Shown here piece by piece: positions 14,358-63,358 of a DNA stretch of 64,000 nucleotides. The stretch comes from Antedon mediterranea. Lineage: Eukaryota; Animalia; Echinodermata. A program made the position numbers and the translations under genes. Numbering within the stretch: position 1 is the stretch's first letter; every line of letters starts with the position of its first letter. The notes beneath the pieces were generated by a model. The model had not been told where the DNA came from. It saw only the letters and a program-made list of their open reading frames with translations, and searched no databases. The DNA lies in NCBI RefSeq assembly GCF_964355755.1, contig NC_092673.1, positions 17,481,648 through 17,545,647 on the forward strand. Direction: 5' to 3'.

Positions 14358-17300
14358 ATGGCAGATTCACAAGGTAATGTTCAGATGATTATAAAATTCA
14401 AATCAAAATCAATCTAATTCCATTCATAAAATGAATGATATAGAATTCTATTAATGTCGGTTTTATAGTCTTAGTACTAATGAGTATTATAAAATAGTTG
14501 ACGATTTAATTGTACAATTCAAGTATATTATATACCTGTATATCAATAGGAATGTATTGTTAATTCAAATATATTTGATGATAATTGATAAATAATTTTG
14601 TAAATGAAGGAGTAAAAAAATACAAAATTGACTACCAAAGAAATGTCATTCTTAGGTCAATGAATATTAATGATAGCATAATCTTGAAGATCATTGCCAT
14701 CATTTAGCCTAATTTGGTACATTTTTTATTATTTTAATTAATAAAAGAAAATAAAACAAATCTATTTAAATCAGTGCATATAACCTATAATTCGTCATAG
14801 TGACGAACTAAATCTGGTTTTATTTGAGTTACTGAAATGTATACTTTGAAATCTTATTTAATCAGTTGAAAAGGATCCATCTGCTATTACTGCTCATGGT
14901 ACAGAGGTTAAGAAAGCATACGTTAAGGCATTGGCTGAGGGATCTGTCAAAGTCAACCTTGGAACGCTTAAAGTGATTGGGCAGGAAGGAGTTGGTAAAA
15001 CTTCCCTTATCAATGCCTTACTTGGAAAGAAGTAAGTACTAGTTAAGTACAGGGAAATGAACATAAGAAGTATGTGAGTCAACTATTAAAGAATACAAAC
15101 TAGCCATTTTCTTTCATTTATTTCACAGGAGAAGATCTTGAATTTTGTTAATGGAAGAGAGTTAATAACTTCTTTGGCACATATAATATTGATAGTCTGT
15201 CTAAAAAAAATAGATATCCAAAAGTTCATAATTTCATCCTAAGGGAAGTGCACTCCTCTAGCCCAACCCCCTCCCACTTGCTTCAGAGCTGTTTCAATAA
15301 ACCACTTATTAATTATTATCACTTTTTAAGTGTCACAATTTGAATACTGATATAAATGATATTAATTAAATGTCTACAAAAATAGATATCAAAAAGTTCA
15401 CATTACGTGTACAGCCCCATTAGAGAATGTGTTCATTTTTACCAACAAGCACGAATGTGCAATACTCGGGGTACAGCGAAAGAAGCTGTAATGACGTCAT
15501 AAGACCAGATATAACGTCACATACACATCAAAAACCGCGCTACCAAATACGGCTATACGATACCATCTTCGAGACGTCATATGGCTGCATCCGGTATGAA
15601 ATTAAAAAATCCGGCTCTCTATAGCTTTGAGGACATGTCCCTGTAGTATATTCATGCTAAATCCGAGCTCAATACTACAACGAATAGGCCTAAGGGAGGA
15701 GTAGTACTTTATAAATTGCACTTTTTGCTCAATAGTGTCCGGATGGAAGAAGAAGAGGAAAAGATGAGAGAGTCCTAGACTCAGGTACCCCGACTAATAA
15801 AACGATATATACTCTATATCATTTTACGTATACAGTATATTTCACCATAAAGTTAAAGAAAAATAGGTTTCGCCAGGGCTCGAACCGGGACCTTCTGCGT
15901 GTTAAGCAGACTTGACAACCACTACACTACGAATCCTCTTACATTAAAAATGTGGGTTACAGAAAGTTTTTTAATCCATTTAAATTACAAATAAATGGTA
16001 ATAAGCACAAAGCAAAATAAACATGTGTAAAAGTGATAATTACCGATTACACAAAATAAGTATTTTAAAAAATAATAAAAATAAGATATACTCTGTATAA
16101 TTATCATATTGCGTATACAGTACTTTTCACCGTAAAGTTTAAAAAAAAAGGTTTAGCCCGGGCTCGAACCAGGTACCTTCTGCGTGTTAAGCAAACGTGA
16201 TAACCACTACGCCAAGAATCCGCATATAACTACATAACGCTGTGGTGTGTGTCACACATTGTGGCTTCTTAATTAAACAAATTAATTAACAAAAAAGCAC
16301 GAATGTGCAATACTCGGGGTACAGAGAAAGAAGCTGTATACAGACGTATACAGTTAAAGTTAAAGAAAAATAGGTTTCGCCAGGGCTCTAACCGGGACCT
16401 TCTGCGTGTTAAGCAGACTTGACAATCACTACACTACGAAACCCACTTACACTAAAAATGTGGGTTACAGAAAGTTTTTTAATCCATTTAAATTACAAAT
16501 AAATATGGTAATAAGCACAAAGAAAAATAAACATGTGTAAAAGTGATAATTACCGATTACACAAAATAAGTATTTAAAAAAATAATAAAAATAAGATATA
16601 CTGTGTATAATTATCATATTGCGTATACAGTACTTTTCACCATAAAGTTTAAAAAAAAAAGGTTTCGTCCGGGCTCGAACCAGGTACCTTCTGGGTGTTA
16701 AGCAAACGTGATAACCACTACGCCAAGAAGCCGCATATAACCATATAACTACATAACGCTGTGGTGTGTGTCACACATTGTGGCTTCTTAATTAAACAAA
16801 TTAATTAACAAAAAATTAAAAATCCGGCTCTATAGCTTTGAGGACATGTCCCTGTAGTATATTCATGCCAAATCCCAGCTCAATACTACAACTAATAATG
16901 GAGGAGTAGTACTTTAAAAATCGCACTTTTTACTCAATAGTGTCCAGATGGTGGAGGAGAAAATGAGTAAGTCCTAGGCCCTGTTCAGACCCATGGCGTT
17001 AGACCGTTTTAGCGTACAACGTTACTATCAAGGTCACGTTACAAACCGCAGAGAAAAAAACGAGGTGTTCAGACCCATAGCGTACGATTATCGTTACAAC
17101 GGAAGTACGTCATCCAGGTTGTTTCTAGTTGCATTCATGTACTCTTACCCACGTGTTTTCATCATTATTTCCACTGTATATAGGCCTAGATCTCAGCCCT
17201 AAATTATGACAAAATTTGCCGTAAATAAAACATACCTCAGCATTTATTTAAGAAAAATATAGTAAAGCCAAATTTCTGTTTCTATTGTTTTTATTTTGTG

Positions 17301-20300
17301 GTAAAAAACATTTTCCCCAGGCTCTTGTGTTACGAAAATAAAGCAGTAAAGTAATGATGAAGAAAAAAATGATTGTGATTACTAGTCTATCCAGTCCAGC
17401 GTTGCCAGCGATAAAATTTAAATTATGCCGTATCCTGTCTCAAATAATGCCAGATTGGGAAAAATAATGCCAGATCCCCAAAATGTGGTCCTAAACAGCG
17501 CCACCAACGGTTGTATGTCTAATAAACGTTTGTAAAACCCCAACTGACACAAAATAGGGCCTAAATTGTATCCCTATGTCGTTCAAAAATTGTATTTTTA
17601 GTTTTGTGAGTAATAACTAATAATTCTAAAAATATCTGGGGTGCGAAAATGGTAATTGCAAATGACACAAACACCAACCCACGAACCCTTCTCCCCCCAT
17701 CCCCCCCCCCAAAAAAAACCTGTTACAGCCATGGAAATTTAGAATTTTTGAGCTGAATATGAGAGCTGCTCGATATTTGCACTTAATTTCAAATATGAAA
17801 GGATCTTAGCCCACGTCACCATAATTAGAAAATGGCAATTATAATTTAAAATAGGAAATTAAAATATATATTAAGTGTCTCCAGGACCTCAGCTCCACCA
17901 TGGCTGGTGCTGAGGTAAGAACATTTGGAAAAATAGAGCTGCTCAATGGGCGGAGATGGCACTTAATTTCAAATATGAAATAAAAATATATTTATTAGTA
18001 CCTCCAGGATCTTAGCCCATCATAGTTTTGGAAATGGCAATTATAATTTAAAATAGAAAATAAAAATATATATTAAGTGTCTCCATGAGGCTGAGGTAAA
18101 AAAAAATGGAAAAATAGAGCTGCTCGATGGGCGGAAATGGCACTTAATTTTAAATAAAAATTACCTCGCCCTCATGGTCACTACTGGGGCTGAGAGGTGA
18201 AGAACATTTGAAAAAATAGGGTTGCTACGACGATGCAAATGGATGGAACATAATTTGAAATATGGAAAACAAATTCTCCTAGAAGAAATTCTTTTTAAAA
18301 TTAGAGCTTCTAATTAGTTACTGGAAATTGCCATTTCAAGGGTTGGGGTAGGGGTGCGGCCACTTATAATTATGAACTGAAACAACAAAACCCCTTTCAT
18401 AATGTTTTCGTTCAATTGTCTCTATATCTGGGGATCCAATAACCTGCATGGTCTCTGAAATAGAGCAACATAATTGGCCAATAGCTAGCCTCTTCGGATT
18501 TGTTGTGCTGCCTATATCGCACACACGGTAGTTTTCGAGCAGCCTTCCTATCCGAAGAATCTATTTAAGTCCGAAACAAAAGGATGGAAGAACTATTGTA
18601 CGGAAAACCCGAACAGATCTGTTTTGTACGATATGATATTGTGTAAGGTGATAATATGTATTAAATTGCAAGATTAACAAAATATTTTATTTTTGTTCTG
18701 TGGTATATTATTTTTTTGGTTGTTCAAAAAACACAAAATTATGCCAGATTATGCTAAAAACGGCTAAATAATGCCGCGGCATTATGCCAGATGCCGTGGG
18801 CCTCTAAATAATGCCAAAAAGCATAATAATGCCAGAAATGGCAACTATGATCCAGTCCAGTCAAAGATATATATTCTTTGGTCCAGTCGGTTGAAAATAA
18901 CCCTTAACTTGCTAATAAAAGGACACAGCTCCCCCTTGTTTGTTTACTGATTTTTTTAGGAGTTAGGGGGTTTTCAGCATTAAACTTGTCCAGTCTAGTC
19001 TGCCTTGTATGAATGAGTGACTTGATATCCCACGCTAGTTTTTAGCTTGAATGAAATGCGTGAATGGCTCTAGGCCTAGCTAGGCCTAAAAGCGGATGGG
19101 ATCGTAGTCACTATGTTTAAATACAAGGTGCATGTATTTATGTCATTTGTTAGAAAATATAATGGTAATCAGTTGATAATAGTTTGTAGCCTTTGTAACA
19201 GTTGTATTTGTAGTGTAGTTAGGCCTTATTTATTCTGGCCTTTTTGTTATTGAAATCCATCTCACACATTGACGATACAAGATGTCAGCCTAGGTCAAAC
19301 CTTGTTTCGCGTCATAACAGGAAACGTTGTGATTGGATACAACGTTGACTTACAGTAGCGTCGTACGCTAAAACGGTACTATCAACCGTTTTCCACTACA
19401 ACGCTACAACCGTTGTACGCTAATCCCCAACTGTTCAGACACACATTCTTTTAGCGTCGTACGCTAAAACGGTCTAACGCCATGGGTCTGAACAGGGCCC
19501 TAGACTCGGGTACCCCGAGTAAAAACTTCGGGTAAATGTCACTTAACCTCCTACTGTGACATGTGTTTATTTAAGTCCAACTTTGATAGGCAGGTCATTA
19601 AACTATTTGATCATTGCTGAATTCTGCTAGTTTTTGCCTGACCATTGACCTTGCATACTGAAGAATGTACCTTGTCCTAATCAATCAATTACAAGAGAGC
19701 TAATAAAATCACATAGTAGGCCTGTTAAGTGACCCAATCCTTCAAATTGTGATAACATTCTGAAACTTTGCACAGTTATTCATTAGGGTGTCAAAAATAT
19801 GAAATGGAAGGGTTGCACAAAATTTGGTCAGGGGAAAGCCGCCATTTTGGATTTCAAAATGGCGGACCCAAATTGTTCACTTTTTAGGTATATCTCTGCT
19901 AAATAGGCACCTAGAGTTCTGAATTTAGGTGCAAATTATATGGTAATGGGGTCACCAAACATATTGGTATAACTAACATTTTAATTGCATGGCGGCCATT
20001 TTGGATTTCAAAATGGCGGACTTCAAATTTTCACTTTTTAGGTATATCTCTGCTAAAGAGGCACCTAGAGTTCTAATTTTAGGTGCAAATTATATGGTAG
20101 TGGGGTCACCAAACATACTGGTATAACTAACATTTTGATTCCATGGCAGCCATGTTGGATTTCAAAATGGCGGATTTCAAATTTTCATTTTTCAGGCATA
20201 TCACTGCTAAAAAGGCACCTAGAGTTCTGATTTTAGGTGCAAATTATATGTTAATGGGGTCACCAAACATATTGGTATAACTAACATTTTGATTGCATGG

Positions 20301-23300: not shown

Positions 23301-26300
23301 TTGAAATCCAACATGGCCGCCATGCAATCAAATGTTAATTATACCAATATGTTTGGTGACCCCACTACCATATATTTTGCATGTAAAATCAGAACTCTAG
23401 GTGCCTCTTTAGCAGAGATATACCTGACAAGTGAAAATTTGAGGTCCGCCATTTTGAAATCCAAAATGGCGGCTTTCCCCTGACCAAATTTTGTGCAACC
23501 CTTCCATTTCATATTTTTGACACCCTAATGAATAACTGTGCAAAGTTTCAAAATGTTATCACAATTTGAAGGATTTGCCTAAAATATGCTCCTTAACATG
23601 CCTACTAACAGGGGTATAATAGGATTCAGGTAATTAATCACCTGCTAAGTTGATTTATCTGATAAGGATTTTGACCAAAAAGTTCTAATGGGGATGTACA
23701 CCTAATGATAATTTCATCCTAAGGGGAAGTGCACTCCTCTAAGCCCCACCCCCTCCCACTTGCTTCAGAGCTGTTTCAATAAACCACTTATTAATTATTA
23801 CCACTTTTTAAGTGTCACAATTTGAATACTGATATAAATGATATTAATTAAATGTCTACAAAAATAGATATCAAAAAGTTTATAATTTCATCCTAAGGGA
23901 AGTGCACTCCTCTAAGCCCCACCCCCTCCCACTTGCTTCAGAGCTGTTTCAATAAACCACTTATTAATTATTATCACTTTTTAAGTGTCACAATTTGAAT
24001 ACTGAAATAAATGATATTAATTAAATGTCTACAAAAATAGATATCAAAAAGTTCATAATTTCATCTTAACTGTTATTGTTAAATGGGGAAGTTCACACCC
24101 CTAGTCCCTCCCCCTTGTTTCTGCACCTGTTTCAATAAACCACTTGTATTAACGTGTCACAATTTTAATACTGATTTCAAATAATAATAATAATATTTAT
24201 TCGGCAAAAGTTCTTAAAAGTACGTTTTACATTTCATCTTGCCAGGATCGAGCAAGTAATAGGCATGAGCCCAAACAGAAAACTGCTGTTACTCCATCAA
24301 TGATTTTCATTTCAGATTTAACCCCAAACATGATGTTACAGATGGCATAGCAGTGATAAGAACTGTAACCACAATATGGACAGAAGATCATGACGATAGT
24401 GGTAAACATACATTAATTTACATTATTATTATCATTGTAAACACTGACAGCATAAGTCTTTTCTCACAGTAAAACAGTATACTACATATTGAAAGATAAA
24501 TTGAAAATAGTTTGGATATTAATTTGCATATTAGCAATAGAGTAACCTGAATAATGTACATACAGACTGATTGTCAAGCATCTAATTTTTTTAATTTCAT
24601 TTCTTATGCATACTTTGTTGCACTGATTGGCGAATGAACAAAATTGGTGAAATGTTTTAAATATTATAGATATTTATTAATATTTAACTATTAATAAAAC
24701 CAATATGATTATATTTTTCTACAGGTAATCCTTCAAAACAGTATACAAAAATGGTCGCTGATAAACTGAGAGGAATGGTAAGTTCATTTAAATAGTGCCT
24801 AGATGACAATTCTAATACTGCTAAATTATATAAATCTTAAACCAAACAGCATGGAATGATTAGAATAAAGTAGACAATGCTAATAATATCTTATTTTTTT
24901 CTTGTGTCAGGTTGACAAGGAATCTCTAGCAGAAGGTAGGCCTACGGAATTCCTTTAAATGTTGTTTTTTGTCAATAATACTTAAAGATAAAAATATCTA
25001 AGAATTTTAATTTATTAACAACTTGTTTTTAACATTTTCAATTCTATGCGATATAAATAAGTTTTCATTTTAGCTGAATTTGAGTGAAATTAAGTTCTCC
25101 TTTCAGTTTAGCCTTATAATTCCTGTAATTTACTGTTCTGCTCTAATAGACAATTTTGTTTTGTAATAACAAAACTTTCAGTTTACTATTATAATTTGTA
25201 TTACTGTATTTTTGTAACTAAAATAATAACAATTATTTACAAAAATTATAATTTTTCTCATAAGTTATTGACAATGCACAAACATTTAGAATAATCTGAT
25301 TTTTAAAAATGTATTTTCCCAATCAAAAGTAGCTAAAGAAACATACAATCTCCATTGTTGTTATTTAATCTATTAACCAATCTATGACAATGATATTGAC
25401 TTTAATGATAAAAATATGACAATGATATTGACTTTAATGATAAAAATAAAATATTGATTACTACTACAAAAATGACAATGACAACAATAGTGATGATAAT
25501 GAATACAACAATGATAATGAGATCAATGAAAATGATTAGAATAATAACTGATGAACAATGATGATAATAATAATTATGATAATATTAATGATGCTATACA
25601 TAAGTGTTGAGTGTGACCAAAAAAAAAATATTTCACTGCAGGTACTGAAGCTATACCATTTGATATAGAGGAACAGTTAGATAAAGATGTAATTCAGGCT
25701 ATTGAACAAAATAAGGGGGAAACATATGAAGACACGATCAACATCTGGGATCATGGGGGACAACACATGTACCATGGTATACATCGTGTAAGTTATGATT
25801 GTATTTGCTTTGAATAAAGTCCATAGACATATAGTATTCTTCTATTCTTCAATATGATAACATTGATTATTTACACAGTGCTTAAATAAAATTTTGTTTT
25901 AAATATTTATTTACTACACTATTTATTTTTAATAGAGAACAATTGCACTTGATAAAAGTGTTTGAGTATTGAAGTTTCAGAAGTTTTTATCTGAGAAACT
26001 TCCTTTTATAGTCCAATTACAGAAGGAAATAATATTTGTATTTCTTTTTTCCTAGATGTTCATGACATCGGAAGCCCTTTACATCGTAGTGTTTGATCTC
26101 AGTAAACCTCTTAATGATCCTGCCAATACCATTGATTCAAATCGAGTAAGTATTTAAAGACAATGTTAAGGTACAGGTATTTGTGATTAAAGATACCTAC
26201 CAGATGAGTGAGACGATTAAGAAAAACATCTAATAACTATTTCATTTTATTTTAATCAAATAAAGATATAATAATAATTGTTTTTTTTATAGAAAAAGCG

Positions 26301-38484: not shown

Positions 38485-38490
38485 AGAATA

Positions 38491-47529: not shown

Positions 47530-49987
47530 TTCTGAAAATGTACAGGAAATGGTATTTAGTTTTCTTATTAAAAGAAATCTAAATGGCATTTTTACAAATC
47601 AACAATTTCAGGGATCTGTTGGAAAGCGATCATTCTTTGTGCCACTACGCCTTGCTTTCAAGACATCAATTGAAGTGAAACCAGTGCCTGATAGATTGCA
47701 AGATATCAGTATCTATTACGACTTTAAGGGATATCTGCCAGATGTATTGTTTCCATACATGATTATTGATTTCATCAACAAATTTCAAAAGAAAGGTGTT
47801 GACCCAATACTGTCATATAATCATGCTGAACTTTACTTCGACCAAGATCATTTTGTGACTTTATCTCTTGTCAATGTTGTCACTAATGAAGATGAGCGAA
47901 AGTTCTTGTTAAAGGTACTGTGTTGTACAATCTCTTGTGAATTTTCAATAAATATTTAAACCAACTTATTTTGAATCGATAGAAGTTGATTAGTCAAACA
48001 CAAAACAATGCTGAAACCTTCTGCAAATTATCATTTAGTTTGTAACACTTATTACAATCGCCTGTATTATCCTAATCTTTCTTTTACTTATTTTTGTTGT
48101 TAAATATTAAGTCAGAATTTACTCTACATGTGCATAATAATTCAAATGCAGATATAAAAATATCAACTACTGTACTTTCTTTTTTTCCAGGTGACTATTA
48201 AAAGAATAAATGCTTTTAATGAAACTAATGAGGAACCTTCATCTGAAGCATGTAGAGAGGTATGTTATCATATTATTTGATAAACCATGAGCACTATCTA
48301 AGATTGTTTATAGATAATAATTTTTACTAAATATTTATAATTAAAGTTTTACAATTTTTTTGGGGCAGTGTAATCAAAATAGTGGTTAACAATTATTTTC
48401 ATTATCAGTCAATTTCAATGTATTTGACCTTATAATTCTGTAAATTTGCAATTTCAATAATAGAAAAACACATGATGCTTAGATGGCACAAGTCTCCCCA
48501 ACATTTCCAACTATCAAAGAAAATATCAAAAAGATATCTTTTCACACATAAAATCGAAGATATTAAAACCATCTTAACTTTTTTTTAAAACTATAATATT
48601 GTAAATGTGAGTGAATAAATGTGTGCAGCGGATTCAAAAGGTAATCAAGTTTTTGTTATTGATTGTGTCTTAATTTGGTATTTGTAGTTGGATTTATTTA
48701 TGTGATTGGAAAACAATATTCAATGTATATTTTTAGGTTTTGTTAACAATCCAGAAGTCATTTGAACCTTCTCAAGATGGTGGTAGAAGAGGGATTAAAT
48801 TTGAGAGATGCATACTTTGTGGTGTATGTAGTGATACATCAGAAAAGAAGCACATTCAAAATCTTGAAAATTTCCAGGACGAGAAGTTGCCATGCACCAA
48901 AACTGGCAAGTCTGTTACAATGGATGTTAAGCGTTACAAGCGGCTATTTGGAGGTAAAAAACATAAACATAAGGATACAAAGTATATCTTTTTAAAGACT
49001 AACACTATTTTGTTTATATTTAAATGAATTCTATGAATAGGATTGGTACAGTATTATAGTTTATTACTATTTATCTTAAATCCTGTTGAACCAAACTTTT
49101 AGAACATAATATTGTGGCTACTGTAAATAACTATAAAAACAGTACTATGGGTAGATTTAGACTTCCAAGGAGTGAGTGGCTTATATTGATTAATTATCTT
49201 CTGTACAGTACCATGTTGACTGTATGATAAAAGTCTCGTGGTTAGTGTTCAATTTTACTTTTTCACAGACGTCCAAGATGATAGAGAGTTACTGCAATCT
49301 GTCAATATTCTTAAATAAAAGGCTTGACCTATAATCTGATTGGCAAACACTAGACTTTATTGTTTTCATAATCTAGCAATCATTATTATTCAGATTTAAA
49401 AAATTAACAATTCAGTTATCATATTAAAATAATATATTGTTATCAACTAAAAAAATAGCCACTGATCCCATAGTTTTACAACTCGTTTTGCAATGCAGAT
49501 CTGTTTATTTCTTGAAATGTTGTGTAGAATATCGGTTATATTTTGTTTTAAAAACCTAGTACTTTTGGATTATTGTACCTTACTTTCTTCCACCTTCTTA
49601 GACTGTACACAAGGCCGTGATTATGAAAATGAAATTATTTGTACCATTCCACGAATATAAAACATTCATTATTGGTTTTATATAACATCTAAGTAGACAT
49701 GCATTTCATCTTAATAGGAGTGTCCACTGAGTAGGGGTTGGCCGTAGTGGTAAAACATATATTGCCTCTGTTGTGCAGGAAAGTGTCTGCTTACCAAAAG
49801 AGGGGCTCTGCTGTATTATACATTAAATGAATTCTTGCTGGATTAATTGCCATTTGAAGTCATTGCATTAATTGATTTAAACAAATTTTAATTTATAGAT
49901 AATTATTTATCACAAAAGAAAACAGTTATTGATTTTTTATTTCTTAGCCTTATATGGTTTTTATATAATAAAATTATATTTTATCAG

Positions 49988-52900
49988 ATGAGAATATTCC
50001 ATCTGCTATTACTGCTCATGGTGCAGATGTTCAGGAAGTGTACACTAAGGCATTGACTGAGGGATCTGTCAAAATCAATCTTGGAATGCTTAAAGTGATT
50101 GGGCCGGAAGGAGTAGGTAAAACATGCCTCATAAATGCTTGTCTTGGAAAGAAGTAAGTACTAGTTAAAGGACAGTGAAATTAACTATGAAATATGCAAG
50201 TTAACTATTAAAAAAATATGATTCATTTTAAAAACCAATTCCCTAATATCGCAGCCTTAAAAGTAACTCAAGTTCACTAATGGTTTCAAATAATTTTCAC
50301 TTCAAATTTAACTCCAAGCATAATGTTTACAGCACTTAAAAGTGACCCAAGTTCATTATTGGTTTCAACTGATTTTCACTTCAGATTTAACCCCAAACAT
50401 GATGTTACAGATGGAATAGCAGTGATAAGAACTGTAAGCACAACATGGACAGAAGATCATGAGGATAGTGGTAAACATAAATACATTTAGCTTTTCATCC
50501 CTCTTGCTGTGAATTATGATAAACTATTGAAAGATAAATTGGAGATCAATATACTACTGACACACAGTAGTATATTGTTGGATTCTATGTTAATGTTGAT
50601 ATGAACAGTCGTGTAACTGGCTGATTTCTGCATGATTTTTTTTTTACATATTAAATATTGTTACTCCTGATCTTTTCTGATGCAAAACATTTGATGGTTT
50701 GCTTCTTTCAGGATTGTATTTCATGCAATTTACATTACAAGTAGTTTGAAAGTGGTAACCTAATAATCAAATATTATTCACTTAAATCAACCCAAGGACC
50801 TACAGAAATAAATAACTTTGTTTTGTTATTTTCAGGTAATCCCTCAAAACAGTATACGAAATTTGTCGCTGACAAAATGAGAACAATGAAAACTGAAAAC
50901 GTATGTCAACAACATTTTATTAAAAACATTAAAATAATACAAAAGGCATTTATACTTCTTTTATTTTTGGAAAGATATCAATCTAGTCCACTGGACTTAC
51001 TTACTAACGTAAGTTCAGTGAACTAGATTGATATCCTTCCAAATAAAAATTACACTACCTGAATGAATGAGAATATTATTCATATCCGCATTTATACTAT
51101 TATTACTAGCCTAAACTGAGGGGTTTGTTTTCTTAATGTAAATCAATGATTCTTTAACAAGCAAATGAAAAATAATGTGCTTTGGAAAGTAAATGTATTT
51201 TCTATTTAGGTAAATATAAAAATATTTAAATCAATATAGCTCATCGGCGATGAGCTATGCTCGACGCGATTATGAGATCATGTTCCGAATATGAGCACTG
51301 TTTCAATAATTTAACAGTATGATTTATAAAGAATATTTAACTATTTAGGTTTGTTTTCATTATACGAGTTAGGTTGTCCAGAAAGATGATGATGAGTCTG
51401 AAAATATTGAGGGCCATGATGATGATATTAATGACAACCACACCAGTAGGGAAGACAACCACAGCAAAAATGATGGTCATGACAACCACAGCAAAGATGA
51501 TGATCATGACAGCCACAGCAAAGATGATGATCATGGCAACCACAGCAAAGATGATGATCATGACAGCCACAGCAAAGATGATGATCATGGCAACCACAGC
51601 AAAGACGATGATCATGAAAACCACAGCAAAGATGATGATCATGGCAACCACAGCAAAGATGATGATCATGGCAACCACAGCAAAGATGATGATCATGGCA
51701 ACCAGAGCAAAGATGATGATCATGGCAACCACAGCAAACAGAGCAGTGATAATGATCATGACAAACAGAGCAGTCATGGTAATGATTATTTTTTGTAACT
51801 TTTAAAATTCTGTTTTTTTAAACAATAGTATTGAGAATTATGTAACATTAATGATGAACCTTTTTAATGACTGTAACATAACATGTGCAATCCTGAGATT
51901 TGATCCCATTCACAATATAGTGGAGTTTATACTGTACCGTGATCGTACCATTTTACAACAATTAAATTGGAAGGTAATACTGTATCTGCTGTATTAATTA
52001 ATTATTTGCAGTTATAAATTAATTGTTGTTTTTCTAATAGAAATATTTTCCAACTTTACTAAAGAACTTTTAGACATTTTATTGTATATTTATATGATTA
52101 AATGTGAGTAAAATAATTTAAAAACTACTATACAATTTATAAAGATATGACTAAAACAATGACAAAACTCAAACGTTGACTAAAATGATTATGTATACAA
52201 AAACAATGATGAGAATGATTGTTATGAGTATATATATTGTTGACAATTACAATGATGATGATGACAATGATTATGACAAAAACTACAACATTCATGATAA
52301 TGAAGATGACAACTACAACATTGATTATAATAACAAACAATAACAACAACAACAATGATGAATTTTTAATGACTATATAATGATGATAGTGATGACAACT
52401 ATGATAAATGAGATTACTACAATGGAGCTTTTTGCATGTGGAGTATTACAAACAAAATCTGTTTTACCTTCAGGTACTGACATTCCATTTGATACAGAAC
52501 AGCAGTTAGATAAAAATGTGATCAAACAAGTTAAGGAAAATAAGAAAGAGACATTGAAAGAAACATTCAACATCTATGATCATGGTGGACAATTGATATA
52601 CCATGGTATTCATCGTGTAAGTTCTTTTAAGTGATGTTTTATTGGGGAGGTGTTGGGCGTTTATTCAAATAAATACCATCCTAATTGGTATAATTAATAC
52701 ATTATTTTAGTTTAAACATCTTTTGAAACTACTTCCGTGACACAGTGGGCCGTTTTAGCCTAAGACGGAAGAAGTTTTAGACGGCTTGCAACATGGGAAG
52801 AAGTATATCCTATGGTCCTAATGAGACACAGGTAGGGAAAAGTTATACAGACCTGCCAGCTTATTAAACAACTCGGCTATTGGGATTCACTTGATTTTAA

Positions 52901-55900
52901 ACAAAAGGTCTTATCATCAGTTCTCCTGATTTAATTTTATATACTATTCCCCACAATATACTCCAATGCTTTATGAATATATTTAAGTTGCAGTATGTAT
53001 AATTCTTGTTTTGCTAACTACTATACTTTCACACCCGCGGTCCGAAAATAAAAAAAAACTAAAATGGGTAACGGCCAACTTAGTTACAAGATGTTGACTC
53101 ACCTTGAACCCGGAACTAACTTTATCGCCGACACTTAAAAATCTACCGATGCAACCAAACATTTCGTTTTAAAACCCTCCATGATATCTTCCTAAGAGAG
53201 AAATATGGAGCAATATCGTATAGGCCTGCTAAAATGTTGTAGAATATACCTATCGCAGTACACATATATTGATTGCTTAGAGGTTAAATATAAGATTTGA
53301 CATCCCCGAGGGAATGATATTATGTTCGAGGGAATATATATTTCCCGAAGCGCAAGCTGAGGGAAATATATAATTCTCGAGAACTTAATATCATTCCCGA
53401 GGGGATGTCTAATCTTATATTTTACCGATATAAAAGGCGATATCTGTTATATTACATAGCCAACAACAAGTAGAATATCTGCTGGGTCGGGTAGCTAGGC
53501 TAGGCCTCCTTTTTGTATTGTATGTAAACAGGCTGCCCATTCACCTTACATTTCGAAGAATAATATACAGATAATTACTAATTAATGATTCCTTGGCAAC
53601 AAAATATTCACTAGCCTAAGTCGTTTAAATAATAATAGAAGAATTTCCATCAATAAGCCTACATTAATAATAATAATATTAATATCAGGTAGGCCGAATA
53701 ATTTGTCTTCTTCGATCGAGCCGAATCACCGGCCAGATGTTCAGTGCGTCGCGCGCATACCGGTTACTACTGTGAGTATTAACCAATCACAAACAGTATT
53801 TCATCACATCTAGGGAGGACTAATAACAAATGAGGGCGCTATGTATGCATAGTTTAAAGGGATTACGGTCGAAGCGGCCGCCAACCAAAGCGGCCGCTAG
53901 TTCAATAACGGTAATTTGTATGGAACGCCGTGTGCGCTTTGATTGTCGTTGTTTTGTCATTTTTGATTGTCATTGTTTCGATCGTCAAGTTTTCTTTTCC
54001 TCGGACGTAAATAACAACTTATTATTAATATTATGTAATATATTCTCTTTTTTGACAGATTGAATGTGATACCTTCTTTTAAACGAAATGGCGAATCGAT
54101 GATTACTTACTTTAACTGTTCTAAATGATATATATGTTTAATAAAGTCAATAAAAAACATTGTGGTGTTTTTATTGTATAATATATAATATGCCAATTAT
54201 TAAGAATAATATATATATTTTTTCAATTTCTTCCCTGCAATTTTGGACGTTTTTTGGAAAATAATACATATATATCACTTTAAAAACATTAAACCATGTC
54301 ATTCCTTGTCTTAAATGTACGTTTTATGGTAAATTATGATAAAAAGTGAGAAACAATGCACTACCTAAGTAGCTCGCGGCGATCGACCTCTCGTGGACGG
54401 TCTTAGTGTTGTAGGCCTAGCTGGTAAACATCGATAACGTACGAACATCGTACGCTAGCTATATACCGAGCCTGACGTTGTATAGTTGCTGCATTAGTTG
54501 TATTTCTATTTTTGCCAGACTCCGTTGATACAAATTGGGGAAAACCCGGTATTTTCGCTGAAAAGTTAGGAGTCTTCCATTTGTTTTGGCTTCACGATCA
54601 ATCGAAAAGTGGGCGAATTACAGGTGAAAAACAAAAATATCAATCCGCGCGCAATGCATTTTGGGATTTATAGCGGGCCGCTATAATTATTAGAATCGAT
54701 TTATTTTTCACATTTTTAACCGTTTAAAGACGAAAAAAGTTATCGCAATAGGACCATATAGTATTATTTTTACATTAAATATAGTTTGTGATCTTAAATT
54801 AGATCTAAAAAACGTAGGGAATGGGGCTTTAAATAGTTTAGTTGATTAATTTCTTCCAGCAAGTTCCGTGGCGCAGCGCAAGAAGCGATGTCTTGTGATG
54901 GAGGGACAATTTCATCGCGAGTTCAAGATCCAGTAGATGACTTTTATTTATTTACGAAAATTACACAGTCAATATCATCGTACTCGAGAATTTATATGAT
55001 TAATGACAGGGACAGGACAATTACGCGAAAATTACTCAGTCAATATCATCGTTCTTGAGTAATATACGATTTACGATCCTCGCAGCGTTAGTCATGTGAT
55101 GCAGTTTCAACCAATCACGTTTGCGTATTTACATAGGCTATGTAATATATAATAATAGTCTTTATTTATGTTAGGGACCACTACCGAATAAATGGTACTT
55201 GTTCATAGGCCTTTAAGAATATTAATAAAATATTTGAATAACAAGCACATTATTTTTTCCAGATCTTCGTAACATCAGAAGCACTTTACATCGTAGTGTT
55301 TGATCTCAGTGTGAACCTTAAAGATCGTGCTATCGTCATTGATCCTAATGGCGTAAGTATTGTAAGACTAATTAAGCTATTGTAGTTGTTGTGCTGGAAC
55401 AAGTCTTCTTGATAAGAAAAAAAAAGCATTTACTTTTTTTTAAATCAAAAAGGTAATTTTGTTCTGTTTTTGTTTTTTTTTTAGAAAAGGCATCAACATC
55501 ATTGGACCAACCTCCAGTTCATATTATCTTACATCCTGTCAGTTTATTCTCATAGTCGTATTGTGGGAAAAAACGAAGCAAAGGGAGTTCACAAACCAAC
55601 TATCCTTATTGTGGGTACACATAAGGGGAAGCTTGGTAAGACTGAAAAACAACAAGATGATGAGGTAATACTCAACTACTAAGAATACAAAGTCTATAAG
55701 CAAATGTAAAGAAACTTAGTCCTGGAGTAGTGTATCAAGTAATTTTATTACTTAAGTCTAACCTGTGATTACTATAGTAGTAAGTAGTAGTACCGAGTCT
55801 ATCGTAACAAAGTTTTTGAATATTAATCTATATATAAATTTACGTACGGGCAAAATTCGGTAAATCGCGCGTTACTTCTAGAATGTTTATTCGATGGTAT

Positions 55901-58900
55901 ATAAAGTTGGTTCGTACGTTCGGTACTGATTTTAACCACCTGATGTAACCCTGTTTACTAATTAAATTGAGTCAGATAATTAGTTATTGACGATTAAAAC
56001 AAATTTAGGTTCAACGATTTAGGGGTGTTTTCCGATCGTGGTATACACTGTCTAATACATGTCCATCGTGAAAAATACCCGCATACAATAATACGAGGAT
56101 GCTTCGCATTTTCCTATCTCCTCCTTCGATAACTGTTTTTAATGGCTGAAAACCGGTTGAACAGCTCGAGTACAGCATCATAATGTTGAAGACAGGCCGA
56201 TTTTTTTAAACAAATACTATTTTGATAGATTTAATATACGTTTATAGAAATGTATTGATTTGCAATGAATGGAACATTCCAAATTATTGCATACCTCCAT
56301 GGTTTAACACAAGTAGGTAAATTTATAGACCCTTGGAGAATTAACAGAAATAGTATTGTAATGCTATACAATACTGCAAATAGGTATTAACCACTTTTGA
56401 TCGCCATTTAAGTGTGTTGGTACTGTTAGATATAATATAAACAAATATACTAATAAACGTTATCACTGTGAGTGTGGGTAGCTCCTACTTTTAGATTATA
56501 AACACATAATAATATAATACGTTATTACTGTCAGTTGTTTCTCAACGTATGTATTAATTAATAATTACAAAAATATAAACGTATTAGTGGTCTTTAAATG
56601 TACTTTACCATTTCAATCGACCATGAGACAGTGACAGTTTTAATAAAGTATTAAATCGGAAATGTTTTACTCTATGTAGTGGTATATTATTTATAGGCCT
56701 ATAAACAAAATATTTCGTTACTGATTGGATAATAAAGAAATAATATAAAGAATAATTTAACAAATTGGGTTTGTTTAAATGAGTTCAAATAAAAAATTTC
56801 GTCTCATTTTGTGACAAGTTTCTAGGTGCTAATTTTGGTTGACTACATAAATCATTGTGTCTATTTATTTGTTTCTGTAAACGACAATGTTTTATAGTCC
56901 TGCCGTACGTACATTTGAAATCGCCAGTTTTTTTACGCTGAAATTACTATGTATTCGAGAACCATCTGTGGGCACGAACTAGATGGTACGCGAGCGAAGC
57001 GAGCGTACCATCTAGTTAGAATAAATTACAGTAATTTACCCATGTTATTATATGAATATATTTTTTTTAGGCAAATAAGGTATTTGAAAAGCTTCGAGGT
57101 GCACTTGGAGAAAAACTGAAAGTACATGTGTATAACCATTATTTTGCCATCGAAAACAGTGAAGAAACAACAGATGAGAGCTTTAGTGAACTAAAAAAGG
57201 TTATTGATGAGTTTATGTCAGATTTAGAAAGGCCTGTTCCTTTGAAGTGGATGCGTTTTCGGTGTGGCATATATAATCTAAGGAGAGAAAAACACTTTTC
57301 TTTGTGTCCTGTTGAAGAGGTAAATTTAATTTAATGTTTTGTTTGTATTTTTTTAATATGTTTTTTTAAATATTTAGGCAAATTGCCAAAGATAACCATA
57401 AGCGAATTCATTCACTATTCTTCTTAAAGGTGGCAATCATGTTCACAAGATAAACATATACTTTTTAGTAGTAATTAATAGTATCTAAAAAAGCATAAAC
57501 AAAAGATTTTTCCCACTATTAAAAAGCAAATAATATTAGTAAATGTGAGCCAGACCTAGTAATATTACATGAAATATTCATTGCTATGTTGCCATTCAGT
57601 GAGAACAATTTCTGTATATATCCCCCATGGCTGTGTGAGAATGACGTTTTCCTTCAGATCCAACATTATGCAGTAAATCAAGTAAATGACAAAAAGTGAC
57701 AGTATTTTGCGCAAAACTGTTTTATATTGGTAATTGTACCTAAAGCATTTTGTGTTGTAAAGCGATGTTTCGCAAACTATGGGCTGCCAGTTTACAACAA
57801 ACAGTGTAAATTTGATGTTATGCAGGTTTTGAGTTTGTGGTTTGATATTCCAAAAATGTTTGTAACATACCAAATGCAATTGATACAGGTATGTGCGACT
57901 AAAGTTTCAATCGCGAATTATGTGAGAACTGTGACATGACAGAGTGATATGTCCTGTGTGCATTATAAAGGCAAAACCCTGATGCTGCTGATTTTTTCGG
58001 TGTTTTTTACCCTAAAAAAAATATCACAACGCAATTTCCAGGGAGCTAGAGCTCCATATTCCTAATTACCTCACCCTCAACCATGTGGGACTGAGGTGGT
58101 GGGTTCTTTTATTTATATGTGTAGTTGAAGTTTCGACCACGATGTAAGATGTAATGTAACGCAATACATTGACATGTCTAGTGTCTGCTATAAAGGAGAA
58201 ATCAAACCGGGCTGCGCTGAATTTAAACAATTTTTTCGTGGATCATCATCAGTGCAATTTCTATCCTCCAAAAAAAAAAATTACAAAACAATTCAAGGGA
58301 CCTAGAGGTCCATATTCCAAAAATGTTCTGGGTGTCTAGAAAACTCAGATCTCAGATATATCTGAGTTTTCAAGATCTAGAAAACTCAGATATTTGAGTT
58401 TTCTAGATCTAGAAAACTCAGATATCAAGATCTGAGTTTTCTAGTTCCAGAATGGAACTAGAAAACCCAGATCATCAAATGGATCGTTCCATTATTAATC
58501 AAAGGGTAGCAGCCTACTGTACAACTTTAATCATAAAGAAATTCAGTATACACCTTTTAAATTTAGGTTTAGCACTTAAGCCTAGCCTAGCTAAGCAAAC
58601 TCAATTCAAGGCTCAACGTGTGGGCGCTATCGCGATGTATCGCGAAGAGTAGGCTTGGCCCTACTAGGCTAGAAGTGGTCAACTCGTACCCAAAATAACT
58701 CGTACCTATTCCCAACTTGGCTAACTCGTACCTCAACCAACTCGTACCCACACCAACTCATAATACCTAATTTTTAAGCCTACATTTTAACGGTAATGTG
58801 CACTGTATTTTCTTTATGATTTAAGCCGTAGGACGCTTCTACATGTTACAATATTAGTAAGAAAACATACACAGTAATCAGTTTTAATAATACTCTAGTA

Positions 58901-61900
58901 TTTCAAATGACCTACCTTCTGATTAATAATGGAATGATCCAAATGACCTACCAACCAATCATTTGATGATCTGAGTTTTCTAGTTTCATTCTGGAACTAG
59001 AAAACTCAGATATTGATATCTGAGTTTTCTAGATCTAGAAAACTCAGATATTGATATCTGAGTTTTCTAGATCCTACCTATGATTTCATTTTTTTTCTTC
59101 AGCTCAAAGAGCTGGCAAGTGAGAATGGTATTGCAGATGAAAAACAATCAATCCTTCTTAACTTCCTGTATGATGTTGGTGAAATTATTTACATGCCTGA
59201 CAACAAATTATTGAAAGATAAAGCAGTGTTAGATCCGATGCAGCTTGTTGAAATTGTTACTACATTTGTAACAGTCAATCGACCAAAATATCCAGTAAGT
59301 AGGTTAAAAAAATTGCTAATTCAGTGTTCCTTGGGGAAATAATAGAGGTACATGTGAATTTCTATATCATTCATGTATCAAATGCAATATCTGACAGTTA
59401 CCTTATAGTTTAACATTGAGTGATTGTATAAGGGTTTAAACATGTAATTGCATCTATAATTCTGCTGTTTGATAACTTAATAAACACAAATTTTTAATAA
59501 ATGTGGCTAATTGGTGTGTTTTTTTAGCCGGCCATGTATATCGATGCCTTTAAAAAGCTTGACAAGGGCATACTGGAGGAAGACTTGTTGCGTAAATTAT
59601 GGAAAGAGCGTGAAGTTGACAAAGGAAAGAATTTTAAGTTCCTTGTAGCACTGATGATTCAATTAGGTTTCATTTGTGAGAGGAAGACAACCAGCAGCCA
59701 AGATTTGGCAAGTACATCTACAGTAGGTTTTGTTCAGTTATCTTTTCTAACATGTTTTGCATGCAAGTTTAAGTATACAACAATTATTTTTGATATAATA
59801 CATATTATAATGTATATTTGTGAATTTTTACCTAAAAGTTTGAAATATTTGTAGGATGAAAGATGCTTTTACCATGTACAGGAAATGATCTTTAGTTTTC
59901 TTATTAAAAGAAATCTAAATGGCATTTTACAAATTTCAGGAATCGGTTGTGAAGCGGTCATTTTTTGTGCCATTACGCCTTGCTTTCAAGACGTCAAAGA
60001 AAGTGAAACCAGTGCCTGATAAATTTCCAGCTATCAGTATATATTACGACTTTAAGGGATATCTGCCAGATGTATTGTTTCCATATATGATTATTGATTT
60101 CCTCAACAAATTTCAAAAAGGCGATGACCCAGTACTGTCATATAATCATGCTGAACTTTACTTGGACCAAGATCATGTTGTTACTTTATCTCTTGTCAAA
60201 TTTGTAACTAATGAAGATGAGCGAAAATTCTTGTTAAAGGTACTTAAAGGTGTCATACAATTTTTTTTTTTCTTTTTCAATAAATATTACCTACTTGCTT
60301 TGAGTTGATTAGTAAAAAGCAAAATAATTTTGTAAACATTTTTGTGTTAAATGTTAACTTAGAATTTACTCTATGTACAAAAGATTTCAAATTCAAATAT
60401 ATGCTTCCTTTTTTTCCTCCAGGTGAGTATTAAAAGAACACCTACTCGTAAGAAAACAAGTACCGATGAACCTTTATCTGAAGCATGTAAAGAGGTATGT
60501 TATGATCAAGGATATTTATTATTTTTTGCGATAGCCTATTGTTATTGTCAAAAATTTCATTTTTTCTGCTCATTTTTGTGTCTCGCAGATCTCTAAAACG
60601 GCGGAAGCAGTTCAGCCAGTAGGTGCACCTGACTTTGGTTTAATGAAAATATGGTCGCGTAAGCGTAGGCCTACCTATGCGCAATTTTCTGAAATTCTTA
60701 AATTGACTATAAATTCAAAACTAACAGCCTTTTTTAAATGAAACTTGGACACATGTATATGCTTCATGTCAATAAGGGGGCGGATAGTGACATTTTCCCC
60801 ATAGGACTATTTTGAGTACAATCGTCACAACAGGGCGTTTCGCGCAAGTCAGCATTTGCACATGGCGGAAAAAGGTGCTTGTTGTTGATAAATTTCATGA
60901 TAAATGGCACCTCTAATTTGCAGGAAAAGACACTCTCATATGTAGCATGCTACCAATGAGCAAAACGATCATACTTTTCCCCTCCAATAAACACATGTGA
61001 CTAATTGAAGGACAATATAACATTTTGTTGCCGATTTCATTCACTCAGTATTTAGTTTTGATTGCGTTGCGTTCAAGTTCAATGCGAACGTACATCTAGG
61101 GGAAGCCCCTGAAAAAAGCGGAAAATTTAATGCTTATTATAGCTCAATATTTGTTGAGGAAATTAAATATATAAATATAAATATAAATAGGTATTGATAC
61201 AGTTGGGTGGGTGGCCTAGAAAAAAAATCTGTTGCTATAATGTATACTACATCGCACAGTTACCACAGTTAGTGTACTATATTATTATTAACATATCCTC
61301 TATGATGATGATACACTATACTATAGCCACACATACTGTAGTAGGTAAACATGGCGTTCCATTTTTTACGTATATACACTAGAAACAATAGGTAGGCCTA
61401 CGTGGTTGTATGGTGGTGTCCTTTGTACGAATCGTTCGAGCCCAGCTCGCTGTATGGGTACGATACACGCGTCAATATCATGTTACATCCAGGGACCAAA
61501 ATGCGTTTATTTTTAATGTGAAAATAGGCAATTCATTTCGCAACTATTAGAAATTTACAGACAGCAACGGCAATGGTAACCTCTAATAAAAAGTAAATTA
61601 GCACTGTGCTGAAACAAAGTGTTTTAATCAAAAGTGAAAGTACTTTATTCTTTTGGTTTTTTTTCCAAATTTTTTTTCCTTATGGTAGGATAATTTTTTT
61701 TTCTAAAGATTTATAGGGGCGGGCGTGCAGAGGGTACGCCCCCCTCTCTGGATCCGCCACTGTCAAGGGTCATCTTCCTGTATCATCAGCACAATTTTCA
61801 GAACATTTTAAGCATTTCGTATATGTGTGCAGCGGACTCAAAACCTTATAAAAAATTTTGTTGTTATTGTAGTTGGCTTTATGTTTTGGAAATCAATATC

Positions 61901-62411
61901 CAATGTATTTTTTTAGGTTTTGTTTACAATCCAAAAGTCATTTGACATTTCAATCAGTATATTTGATCATCCTCAGGAGTGAAAATTCAGAAAGTCCTCA
62001 ATCGTGAGGTATTCAAACGAAATGTCAAAAAACTCAACAGTTCTTTATCAAACAAAATATATGTACCGCAAACTTTATATCAACATATTAAAAAAAAAAC
62101 ATATTGATTTCGCCATGCAAACCTTCAAACAATATACTGTGTCTTAAATTGTCACTTGGCTTTATGTTGGAAATCAATATTCAATGTATATTTTTAGGCA
62201 TTGTTAACGATCCAGAAGTCATTTGAACCTTCTAAAGATGGTGGTAGAAGAGGGATTCAATTTGAGAGATGCATACTTTGTGAATGTAGTGAAAAATCAA
62301 AAAAGAAGCACATTCAAAATCTTGAAAATTTCCAGTATGAGAAGTTGACATGCACTAAAACTGGCAGGTCTGTTACGATGGATGTTAAACGTTACAAGCG
62401 GCTATTTGGAG
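49988..62411 (+). CDS. ROCO-family gene, Roc-COR module 3 (13 exons, 786 codons, phase 1 to phase 1)
   Basis: GT-AG exons 49988-50153, 50385-50470, 50836-50900, 51373-51778, 52474-52616, 55263-55352, 55485-55664, 57071-57319, 59103-59294, 59528-59722, 59940-60239, 60423-60494, 62198-62411 splice in frame; motifs GPEGVGKT, VTDGI, IYDHGGQ, VGTHKG, FAIEN, VPLKW, FLYDVGEIIY, VLDPMQL; same intron positions as module 1. Confidence 0.88.
51454..51740 (+). repeat. Coding 27-bp minisatellite, 10 full copies plus a partial, encoding (G/D)NHSKDDDH
   Basis: Unit GGCAACCACAGCAAAGATGATGATCAT inside exon 51373-51778; the reading frame is fixed by the flanking splice phases. Confidence 0.88.
53265..55150. 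mobile_element. Non-autonomous element with a long left-end hairpin and asymmetric subterminal inverted repeats (possibly Crypton-like)
   Basis: Hairpin ATATAAGATTTGACATCCCCGAGGGAATGATATT...AATATCATTCCCGAGGGGATGTCTAATCTTATAT (53287-53420); TATATTACATAGCC (~53447) is inverted at 55136-55149; absent from the corresponding module-1 intron. Boundaries and class are uncertain. Confidence 0.45.
55827..57015 (+). mobile_element. Non-autonomous Helitron, second complete copy
   Basis: A|TCTATATATA...CCATCTAG|T with the same terminal hairpin as 29761-31072. Confidence 0.92.
58330..59075. mobile_element. MITE with repetitive inverted ends and an internal (AACTCGTACC)n block
   Basis: CTAGAAAACTCAGAT / ATCTGAGTTTTCTAG repeated in both orientations at 58336-58480 and 58964-59072; AACTCGTACC repeats at 58681-58760. 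Confidence 0.65.
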
Positions 62412-63328
62412 GTGAGTAACAAAAGAGACAATGGCATTTTTATTCATTTTTTTTACCCCTAACTATAGTAAACAGTGTGAAACAATTAGACAGTCAGTCA
62501 GAAACTGCTAAACAATATGAGGATAAATTAAGGTTCAAATGTATAATACTATACACATAATGAATGTTTATGAGTTGAATGGTCAGAATATTTCATGAAT
62601 AGAAAGATTGAAGGCTCTATTTTTAATGAGGCAGAGCCGAAATACAAAACATTCATTTTATTCAATTTATTGATCGTTAATCATTGACAAATGCTAGGCC
62701 ATGAAGCTAGGCCATTCAAAAAGACAGTGCTCCAAATTTGAACACGGAGTAGAACATTTATAGACGGTGCTCAGAACAAGTTGATTTTCAAACCCAATCA
62801 GCCAACAATGAATCCATTCAGCAAATAGAAAACATATTTAATTTTAAGAAAAATGTTAAATCACATTTCTGTTCAACCAAATAACTATATAAGTCAATCA
62901 TAGTCTTTTAATTTAACTTGTTTTATTATATTATTGTTTTTGTTATATTTACGTGTTTAATGCAATACTTAGTAATTTTTATATTTTTTATTGATTGTAA
63001 AAGGATGCCAATGGAAATAAGCTAATAAGCTTTTTGGGCTATCCTGGAAAATCTTTTATAAATGTATAATTTGTAATGTCCGTAATTTATGTTATCACTT
63101 TGTATATGTATTTGTTATGATGATTTTCCTAATAAATTCAAATCAAATGTCGCGTTGCAAAAATTCTCAAATTGTTTGCAAAAAACTGAAAGTGCGTTAA
63201 AGTATCATTTGGAATTAGCCCCAACTAACTTGTTTATAAAATAAATTGTTGCATTCATGACTATGTTTGAATGTGATATGAATTTGAGTATCTATTGAAT
63301 ATATTGTTATATTTTTCAGTAAATACAG

Positions 63329-63358
63329 ATGTTGCTGGAACATCAAGTTCAAACCAAG
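63329..63358 (+). CDS. Candidate next micro-exon of the ROCO gene (DVAGTSSSNQ)
   Basis: TACAG acceptor (alternative in-frame acceptor giving a start at 63320), AAG|GTATG donor, phase 1-1, open frame; implies the gene continues beyond the window. Confidence 0.55.

What the first reader, a model, noticed from the sequence alone, without database searches (positions are those of the whole stretch)
14358..63358. Sensor-less ROCO gene made of concatenated Roc-COR modules in one reading frame
Seen: each module ends on a phase-1 donor (RLFG|) and the next begins on a phase-1 acceptor (|DENIPSAITAHG). No counterpart of the start exon was noticed before modules 2 and 3, so they appear to be internal to one transcript. 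An in-frame TAA 9 nt upstream of ATG 14358 puts the GTPase at the very N-terminus, with no LRR/ANK/TPR. Established: characterised ROCO proteins (LRRK1/2, DAPK1, MFHAS1, Dictyostelium and bacterial Rocos) carry one Roc-COR, usually flanked by sensor/effector domains, and their activity is linked to COR-mediated dimerisation. Inference: a tandem Roc-COR polypeptide could form an intramolecular pseudo-heterodimer, and rapid module turnover fits an immune/conflict GTPase. This is the best candidate for an undescribed system here.
Basis: partly seen in the sequence, partly recalled or inferred. Interest (0 to 1): 0.85.

Follow-up and report, generated by a model that had tools for sequence, protein, structure and literature searches.

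The report
Feather-star ROCO cassette array, one broken
A feather-star locus carries two intact copies and one broken copy of an LRRK2-type GTPase switch (Roc-COR); the first copy likely ends at its own stop exon, so the two-switch protein that the splice frames would allow is possible but untested.

Summary
The exons, splice phases and coordinates are real, and the units are Roc-COR. But there are two intact units, not three. The middle unit is a recent chimeric duplicate: a retrotransposon replaced its G3, G4 and COR-A exons, and using all its spliceable exons gives a stop at 793 aa. A RefSeq model of Antedon mediterranea ends on that exon. The 'start exon' has a strong upstream acceptor, so 'sensor-less' is not shown. 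Phase-1 ends look family-wide: relatives join the same edges to ankyrin, DED, death, kinase or membrane cassettes. Units 1+3 would still make a stop-free 1,462-aa chain. Unit 3's closest relative is annotated as the second Roc-COR of a two-unit protein, and 3 of 120 Roc-COR proteins held have two units, all predictions. No junction read between units was seen. Verdict: new variant of an expanded invertebrate ROCO family; two-unit product about 35-40%.

The parts
14336..14373 (+). Small exon with ATG 14358 (in-frame TAA at 14349) and a phase-1 donor; has its own strong acceptor, so likely an internal exon
   Evidence: read in another frame it matches the tail of RefSeq P0022
14866..15031 (+). 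Unit 1 Roc start exon (helix alpha0 region, G1 P-loop), phase-1 acceptor
24316..26907 (+). Unit 1 Roc exons: 24316-24401 (G2), 24725-24777, 24911-24935, 25642-25787 (G3), 26056-26145, 26293-26472 (G4, THKG), 26659-26907
27414..29586 (+). Unit 1 COR exons: 27414-27608, 27844-28038, 28245-28547, 28824-28892, 29370-29586 (phase-1 donor)
   Evidence: (COR-A E 2.4e-7)
31214..31263 (+). Stop-carrying phase-1 exon ('T exon'), likely a linker exon that lost its donor; AATAAA at 31259; ends unit 1 at 679 aa
   Evidence: RefSeq P0001 ends on the same peptide
31933..32949 (+). Unit 2 5' part: exons 31933-32098 and 32330-32415 (unit-3 type), crossover near 32434, exons 32739-32791 and 32925-32949 (unit-1 type)
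33522..42658 (.). Gypsy-type LTR retrotransposon (SCAN gag; protease-integrase-RT-RNase H order) plus an inverted partial copy; no target-site duplication; replaces the G3, G4 and COR-A exons of unit 2
42659..48953 (+). Unit 2 3' part: acceptor-less exon remnant 42659-42789, DNA transposon about 42915-47529, COR-B exons 47612-47914, 48191-48259, 48737-48953
49269..49318 (+). Identical second copy of the stop exon
49988..57319 (+). Unit 3 Roc exons: 49988-50153 (G1; in-frame ATG 50086), 50385-50470, 50836-50900, 51373-51778 (Asp/His-rich repeat insertion, needed for frame), 52474-52616 (G3), 55263-55352, 55485-55664 (G4, THKG), 57071-57319
   Evidence: splice 50150>50385 in one contig of run X1
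59103..62411 (+). Unit 3 COR exons: 59103-59294, 59528-59722, 59940-60239, 60423-60494, 62198-62411 (phase-1 donor)
   Evidence: (COR-A E 1.6e-7)
63320..63358 (+). Phase 1-1 linker exon after unit 3; the gene runs off the window. In P0002 and P0012 this linker leads to a hydrophobic, likely membrane-spanning tail

Best explanation
The window holds two intact Roc-COR units and one broken duplicate from a large feather-star ROCO array; unit 1 likely ends at the stop exon behind it as a stand-alone 679-aa GTPase switch, and the in-frame fit to unit 3 is likely a by-product of cassette shuffling. Shown: the exon structure, the break in unit 2, the stop exon, and the mosaic ancestry of the exons. 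Inferred: (1) Roc-COR, DED, ankyrin, linker and membrane cassettes in this family share phase-1 edges, so unequal crossover can rejoin them in frame. (2) One such event cut a linker exon behind unit 1 and placed unit 3's internal Roc exon 0.67 kb behind the stop. (3) A later unequal crossover near 32434 duplicated the unit 1-unit 3 boundary, and transposons then destroyed the copy. (4) Family members likely act as GTP-switched death or immune signalling proteins through their tandem DEDs; a tail-less unit 1 would act as a dimer partner or modulator. A two-unit chain would arise only when the stop exon is skipped.
For: Stop exon with a phase-1 acceptor, no in-frame donor before the stop, and AATAAA; RefSeq P0001, 92.7% identical to unit 1 over COR, ends on it. 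It resembles linker exons of P0010, P0019 and P0013. After RLF[G/E], 24 of 30 relatives have a G-codon residue and many different tails (near-duplicates included). The Roc start exon follows ankyrin, DED, death, kinase, short-peptide or Roc-COR segments in different relatives. The nearest relative changes from exon to exon, and unit 1-unit 3 exon identity alternates between 75% and 95%. Unit 2 is a chimera with 3 differences from unit 1 over the six shared coding exons. 25 of 28 first hits lie on a contig of the same 36.2-Mb length. Tandem DED fold in paralogue P0011 matches caspase-8/cFLIP DEDs. Two-unit proteins are rare, 3 of 120, and all are predictions.
Against: The stop exon's acceptor scores low in a small matrix built from this window (2.4 bits, against 8.3 for the Roc start exon; training range -4.6 to 17.6), which favours skipping. 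AATAAA is common here (1.83 per kb). Only 671 bp separate the stop from the next Roc exon, with no CpG-rich stretch and one modest donor at 31694, so unit 3 has no evident first exon of its own. Unit 3's closest relative, P0002 (82%), is annotated as the second Roc-COR of one protein, joined at this very exon. One contig of run X1 shows that exon spliced downstream and carrying 101 more letters upstream that do not follow the intron. P0001 is itself a fragmentary model that starts in what is an intron here, so its ending may not rest on reads.
Confidence: 0.52

Rival explanations
1. Units 1 and 3 form one gene. The donor-less stop exon is usually skipped, giving a Roc-COR-Roc-COR protein of more than 1,462 aa with a likely membrane anchor beyond the window. 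The two units would pair as a tethered GTPase heterodimer. In this haplotype the wrecked duplicate must also be skipped.
For: Stop-free frame. Stronger acceptor at the Roc exon than at the stop exon. No evident promoter room. Both units intact, with dN/dS 0.54 (bootstrap 0.42-0.72). P0002 has two complete units joined at the same exon edge. The X1 contig shows the exon as internal. P0143 (Branchiostoma belcheri XP_019630255) and unnamed P0129 also carry two units. COR-mediated dimers are established for the C. tepidum protein (PMC6337361 section 9).
Against: No junction between units was seen, though both tables were cut and the runs are contigs. P0002's first unit is a distant ankyrin-bearing type (about 25% identical to unit 1), so the unit 1-unit 3 pairing is not what is annotated. 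All two-unit proteins are automated models that may fuse neighbours. The linker between units would be only a few residues. In this haplotype 20.4 kb with a sense-strand LTR element and a frame-breaking default splice lie between them.
Confidence: 0.35
2. Unit 1 is not a gene start either. An upstream ROCO gene outside the window splices into 14336 (out of frame, ending its protein) or into 14866 (in frame), so these units are internal or trailing cassettes of a longer sensor-bearing transcript.
For: Strong acceptor at 14336. RefSeq P0022, a Roc-COR-DED-like model, ends with this exon and the next in another frame (36 of 36 residues identical over 14866-14973). P0179 runs from DED-like sequence into a Roc. 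Unchecked notes place ankyrin-ROCO genes 41 kb before and 123 kb after the window.
Against: No ROCO, DED or linker exon was found in 1-14300, and no strong phase-1 candidate exon scored there, so the intron would exceed 14 kb. This reading can hold together with either of the other two.
Confidence: 0.1
3. One reading: three complete Roc-COR units in one sensor-less polypeptide.
For: Donor and acceptor phases match at both boundaries.
Against: Unit 2 lacks G3, G4 and COR-A; every route tested contains at most two of each.
Confidence: 0.02

Closest known systems
Antedon mediterranea RefSeq 'uncharacterized' ROCO cluster (P0001 XP_071948791, P0002 XP_071947615, P0012 XP_071948735, P0022 XP_071947397, P0004 XP_071948768)
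   Same: Same subfamily (68-86% identity to unit 1), same G motifs, same stop exon, Asp/His repeat and post-COR linker. P0002 has two complete Roc-COR units.
   Different: Automated models; no paper on them was found. P0002's first unit is a distant ankyrin-bearing type. No unit 1-unit 3 fusion and no unit 2 chimera among the hits.
Brown-algal LRR-ROCO families (Teng et al., PMC11378527, passages; Zambounis et al. as summarised in PMC4104024 section 5)
   Same: Expanded ROCO families with exon shuffling, some with membrane-like tails, proposed as immune receptors.
   Different: There single LRR exons shuffle in front of one Roc-COR. Here whole Roc-COR, DED and membrane cassettes appear to be rejoined.
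Trichoplax ROCO expansion (PMC4104024 section 5)
   Same: At least 17 genes with death or CARD domains; three have a second, Ras-like GTPase in front of Roc.
   Different: The second GTPase is Ras-like, not a second Roc-COR.
Chlorobium tepidum Roco, LRRK1/LRRK2, DAPK1
   Same: Roc-COR fold (Foldseek E 1e-12 to 1e-10 for paralogue P0011); G1-G3 intact.
   Different: One Roc-COR each, dimers between chains. This subfamily lacks the G4 aspartate (0 of 19 A. mediterranea modules) and has a long acidic insertion after G2.
Prokaryotic AP-GTPase+COR counter-invader proteins (Kaur et al., PMC8195603 section 15)
   Same: Roc-COR switch with a swappable C-terminal effector, several copies per genome.
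   Different: Bacterial, N-terminal LRRs, no introns. No 'COR+AP-GTPase' string in the supplements searched.

Membership tests
ROCO proteins | Roc GTPase with G1-G3 motifs | tested here: met
   G1, G2 Thr and G3 DHGG in units 1 and 3. Single exons hit Pfam Roc only weakly; whole paralogues pass the cut-off.
ROCO proteins | COR directly after Roc | tested here: met
   COR-A E about 2e-7 on single exons; COR-A and COR-B in order; fold match for paralogue P0011, mean pLDDT 62.
ROCO proteins | Canonical G4 aspartate (known to vary in Roc) | tested here: not met
   THKG in both units; THKG in 17 and THKA in 2 of 19 A. mediterranea modules of this type. PMC6337361 section 9 says G4-G5 vary in Roc.
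ROCO proteins | GTP binding, hydrolysis and COR-mediated dimer | not testable with these tools
Multi-Roc-COR single polypeptide (proposed) | Three complete units | tested here: not met
   Unit 2 lacks G3, G4 and COR-A.
Multi-Roc-COR single polypeptide (proposed) | Open frame across units 1 and 3 | tested here: met
   1,462 codons, no stop.
Multi-Roc-COR single polypeptide (proposed) | Transcript joining the units | tested here: inconclusive
   Only contigs were available. No inter-unit joint was displayed, the tables were cut, and the upstream 101 letters of the one spliced contig were not shown.
Sensor-less ROCO (proposed) | No coding exon upstream of Roc in the transcript | tested here: inconclusive
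   In-frame TAA holds only if the small exon is used; it has an acceptor, and exon 14866 can take any phase-1 donor.
Exon-shuffling immune ROCO arrays (brown-algal type) | Clustered paralogues with recombining exons | tested here: met
Exon-shuffling immune ROCO arrays (brown-algal type) | One-repeat sensor exons under diversifying selection | tested here: not met
   None found in this window; overall unit 1-unit 3 dN/dS 0.54.

The most novel reading that the evidence does not exclude
Feather stars make natural double-ROCO proteins. Whole Roc-COR units are interchangeable phase-1 cassettes, and skipping a weak stop exon switches the locus between a one-switch protein and a membrane-anchored two-switch chain whose units pair as a built-in heterodimer. 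In the P0002 type, a unit with a canonical G4 is tethered to one that lacks the G4 aspartate.
Probability: 0.35. Interest if true: 0.72.

Novelty: new variant of a known kind. Interest (0 to 1): 0.45.

Why it matters
Whether ROCO GTPases such as LRRK2 work as dimer-activated switches is debated (PMC6337361, passages and section 9). A natural chain with two different Roc-COR units would let each side be mutated alone, and would test whether one unit can serve as activator only. Even if the fusion is not made, the locus shows how an invertebrate ROCO family likely renews itself by rejoining phase-1 cassettes. It also warns that automated gene boundaries in such arrays are unreliable.

Tried and rejected
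No whole genome is held, so flanks could not be read. Sequencing runs: no RNA holder listed; 5 runs, one only guessed to be RNA. Laying four of them and then two showed no joint between units; the tables were cut (144 and 7 joints not shown), so this is no evidence either way. Run X1 had slight cover over the stop exon and none over the intron before it; not used as evidence. Contig depth over the duplicated segment was about 2-4 times that of unit-1-only introns in X2-X4 (table 8), which would fit a real duplication. These are one sample, possibly the assembly's source, and depth is not copy number, so it is only a hint. Complex prediction of a unit-1-like COR (P0001 210-566) with a unit-3-like COR (P0012 427-783): no answer, score 0.00, alignments not used. 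A search of shorter proteins around the P0002 junction returned 12 A. mediterranea models and no transcript-derived fragment spanning it. A search of proteins of 1,499-4,280 aa found only P0002 among 4,463 candidates. The tree is the quick version only and does not resolve unit 1's position. A P-loop-like word near 31680 sits beside a high-copy repeat and was dropped as chance. Earlier-findings look-ups near the window, by sequence and for relatives gave nothing; one search listed no two-unit case among the 8 of 16 shown.
Full report
Observation. I rebuilt the exons by coordinate. Unit 1 has 14 exons (14358-29586, 663 codons). Unit 3 has 14 exons in the window (49988-63358), including an Asp/His-rich exon at 51373-51778 that the frame needs. 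All introns are GT-AG. Units 1 and 3 are 73% identical over the main block, and joined they give 1,462 codons without a stop. Single exons hit Pfam COR-A (E 2.4e-7 and 1.6e-7, under the gathering score) and Roc weakly. Profiles from relatives find G1, G3-G5, COR-A and COR-B once per unit. A model of paralogue P0011 (mean pLDDT 62) matches LRRK1/2 and C. tepidum Roco, and its tail matches caspase-8 tandem DEDs.

Unit 2 is broken. Self-comparison shows 31073-32434 identical to 49128-50489, 32310-33521 97% identical to 24297-25500, and 47514-49139 99% identical to 28149-29772. The switch from unit-3-like to unit-1-like sequence lies near 32434, and the six coding exons shared with unit 1 differ at 3 bases. 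This is what a recent unequal crossover gives (inference). A Gypsy-type element with an inverted partial copy and no target-site duplication replaces the equivalent of 25501-27907, which holds G3, G4 and COR-A. Using all exons with an acceptor gives a stop at 793 aa; in-frame routes need skipping and never hold more than two G3, G4 or COR-A.

A stop exon was missed. At 31214 (copy at 49269) a phase-1 exon reads 16 residues to a stop, has no in-frame donor, and carries AATAAA. It resembles linker exons of three paralogues. The RefSeq model P0001, 92.7% identical to unit 1 over COR, ends on it. Against its use: its acceptor scores 2.4 bits in a 25-site matrix from this window, against 8.3 for the Roc exon; AATAAA occurs 1.83 times per kb; only 671 bp remain for a promoter of the next unit; and P0001 is a fragmentary model.

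'Sensor-less' is not shown. The small exon has a strong acceptor. RefSeq P0022, a Roc-COR-DED-like model, ends by splicing into this exon and the next in another frame. No ROCO exon was found in 1-14300. Units 2 and 3 have an in-frame ATG before the P-loop, where several RefSeq models start.

The family. The first search gave 28 hits, 27 from Antedon mediterranea, 25 of them on a contig of the same 36.2-Mb length. Many are Roc-COR followed by DED-like pairs, death domains or hydrophobic tails. The Roc start exon follows ankyrin, DED, death, kinase, short-peptide or Roc-COR segments. After RLF[G/E], 24 of 30 proteins have a residue that fits a G-starting split codon (near-duplicates included, introns of relatives not seen). 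Phase compatibility is therefore likely a family-wide cassette property and weak evidence for one transcript. The nearest relative changes exon by exon. Unit 1-unit 3 dN/dS is 0.54 (0.42-0.72), which fits constraint on both. The G4 aspartate is absent in both units and in 19 of 19 A. mediterranea modules of this type.

Support for a two-unit protein. P0002 (XP_071947615), 82% identical to unit 3, has ankyrin repeats, a distant Roc-COR, a unit-3-like Roc-COR joined at the same exon edge, and a hydrophobic tail. Of 185 proteins held, 120 have Roc G3-G5 plus COR-A, and 3 have two units: P0002, P0143 (B. belcheri) and unnamed P0129. Only the best 150 of 4,666 library hits were seen. One contig of run X1 (RNA by guess) joins 50150 to 50385 as predicted, carries P0002-like variants, starts its match at acceptor 49988, and has 101 further letters that were not displayed. 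Another X1 contig (depth 39) ends its match at donor 48953 and goes on with 73 letters; no joint to 49269 or 49988 was displayed for it. No inter-unit junction was seen, in cut tables.

Mechanism. Shown: anatomy, breakage, mosaicism. Inferred: cassette turnover by unequal crossover; unit 1 ending at the stop exon as the likely main product (0.52); a fused two-unit, likely membrane-anchored protein as main product (0.35); both units trailing an upstream sensor-bearing gene (0.10). An immune or cell-death role rests on DED and death tails in paralogues and on analogy, not on a test.

Literature. Nine full-text searches listed no paper on proteins with two Roc-COR units or on this crinoid family; most subscription papers are not in the library. 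I read passages of PMC11378527, passages and section 9 of PMC6337361, passages and section 15 of PMC8195603, passages and part 1 of 2 of section 5 of PMC4104024, and passages of PMC12373286 and PMC11463336. In the supplements of PMC8195603, 'AP-GTPase+COR' occurs 2,470 times in file 6, and 'COR+AP-GTPase' was not found in the files searched; file 4 was cut and file 13 not searched. Other supplements were not read. The labels Gmr1-like and Helitron-like rest on recalled definitions.

Verdict. A real, fast-changing ROCO array with two intact units. The three-unit sensor-less reading fails. The two-unit protein is open, and appears in annotation but not in the papers searched. New variant of a known kind; interest 0.45.

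Noticed in passing
window 33522-42658: Young Gypsy-type element with SCAN-domain gag and integrase before RT (Gmr1-like by recalled definition); LTR ends 99.7% identical over 296 bp; open 1,232-aa pol frame; nested LINE-like RT at 37436-38482 on the minus strand; inverted partial copy at 33522-35440.
   Followed up: partly
window 29761-31072 and 55825-57015: Two 93%-identical non-coding insertions between A and T, with TC...CTAG ends and a 3' hairpin (Helitron-like); the empty site is in the duplicate near 49128; very high depth in all runs.
   Followed up: partly
window about 42915-47529: Inverted-repeat DNA transposon with an apparent TTC target duplication and ORFs at 43864-46600 without a Pfam hit; degenerate related inverted-repeat element at 19736-23575.
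   Followed up: partly
window 26293-26472 and 55485-55664: G4 motif reads THKG; the guanine-reading aspartate is missing across this Antedon subfamily but present in P0002's first unit and in Anneissia relatives. Nucleotide specificity may differ.
   Followed up: partly
window 51373-51778: Exon of 27-bp Asp/His-rich repeats inserted between G2 and G3 of unit 3, shared with P0002 and P0012 in different copy numbers; possible metal-binding or low-complexity region.
   Followed up: no
window 5875-11821: Fragmented LINE retrotransposon on the minus strand upstream of unit 1.
   Followed up: no
window 15795-16815: Tandem copies of a tRNA-like short repeat in unit 1's long intron, seen by eye and as repeats; not scanned.
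   Followed up: no
proteins P0151, P0143, P0105, P0126, P0088: Invertebrate-type ROCO relatives carry varied partners: caspase, GT4 glycosyltransferase, FN3-CARD-TIR, Neuralized, Macro with Ras.
   Followed up: no
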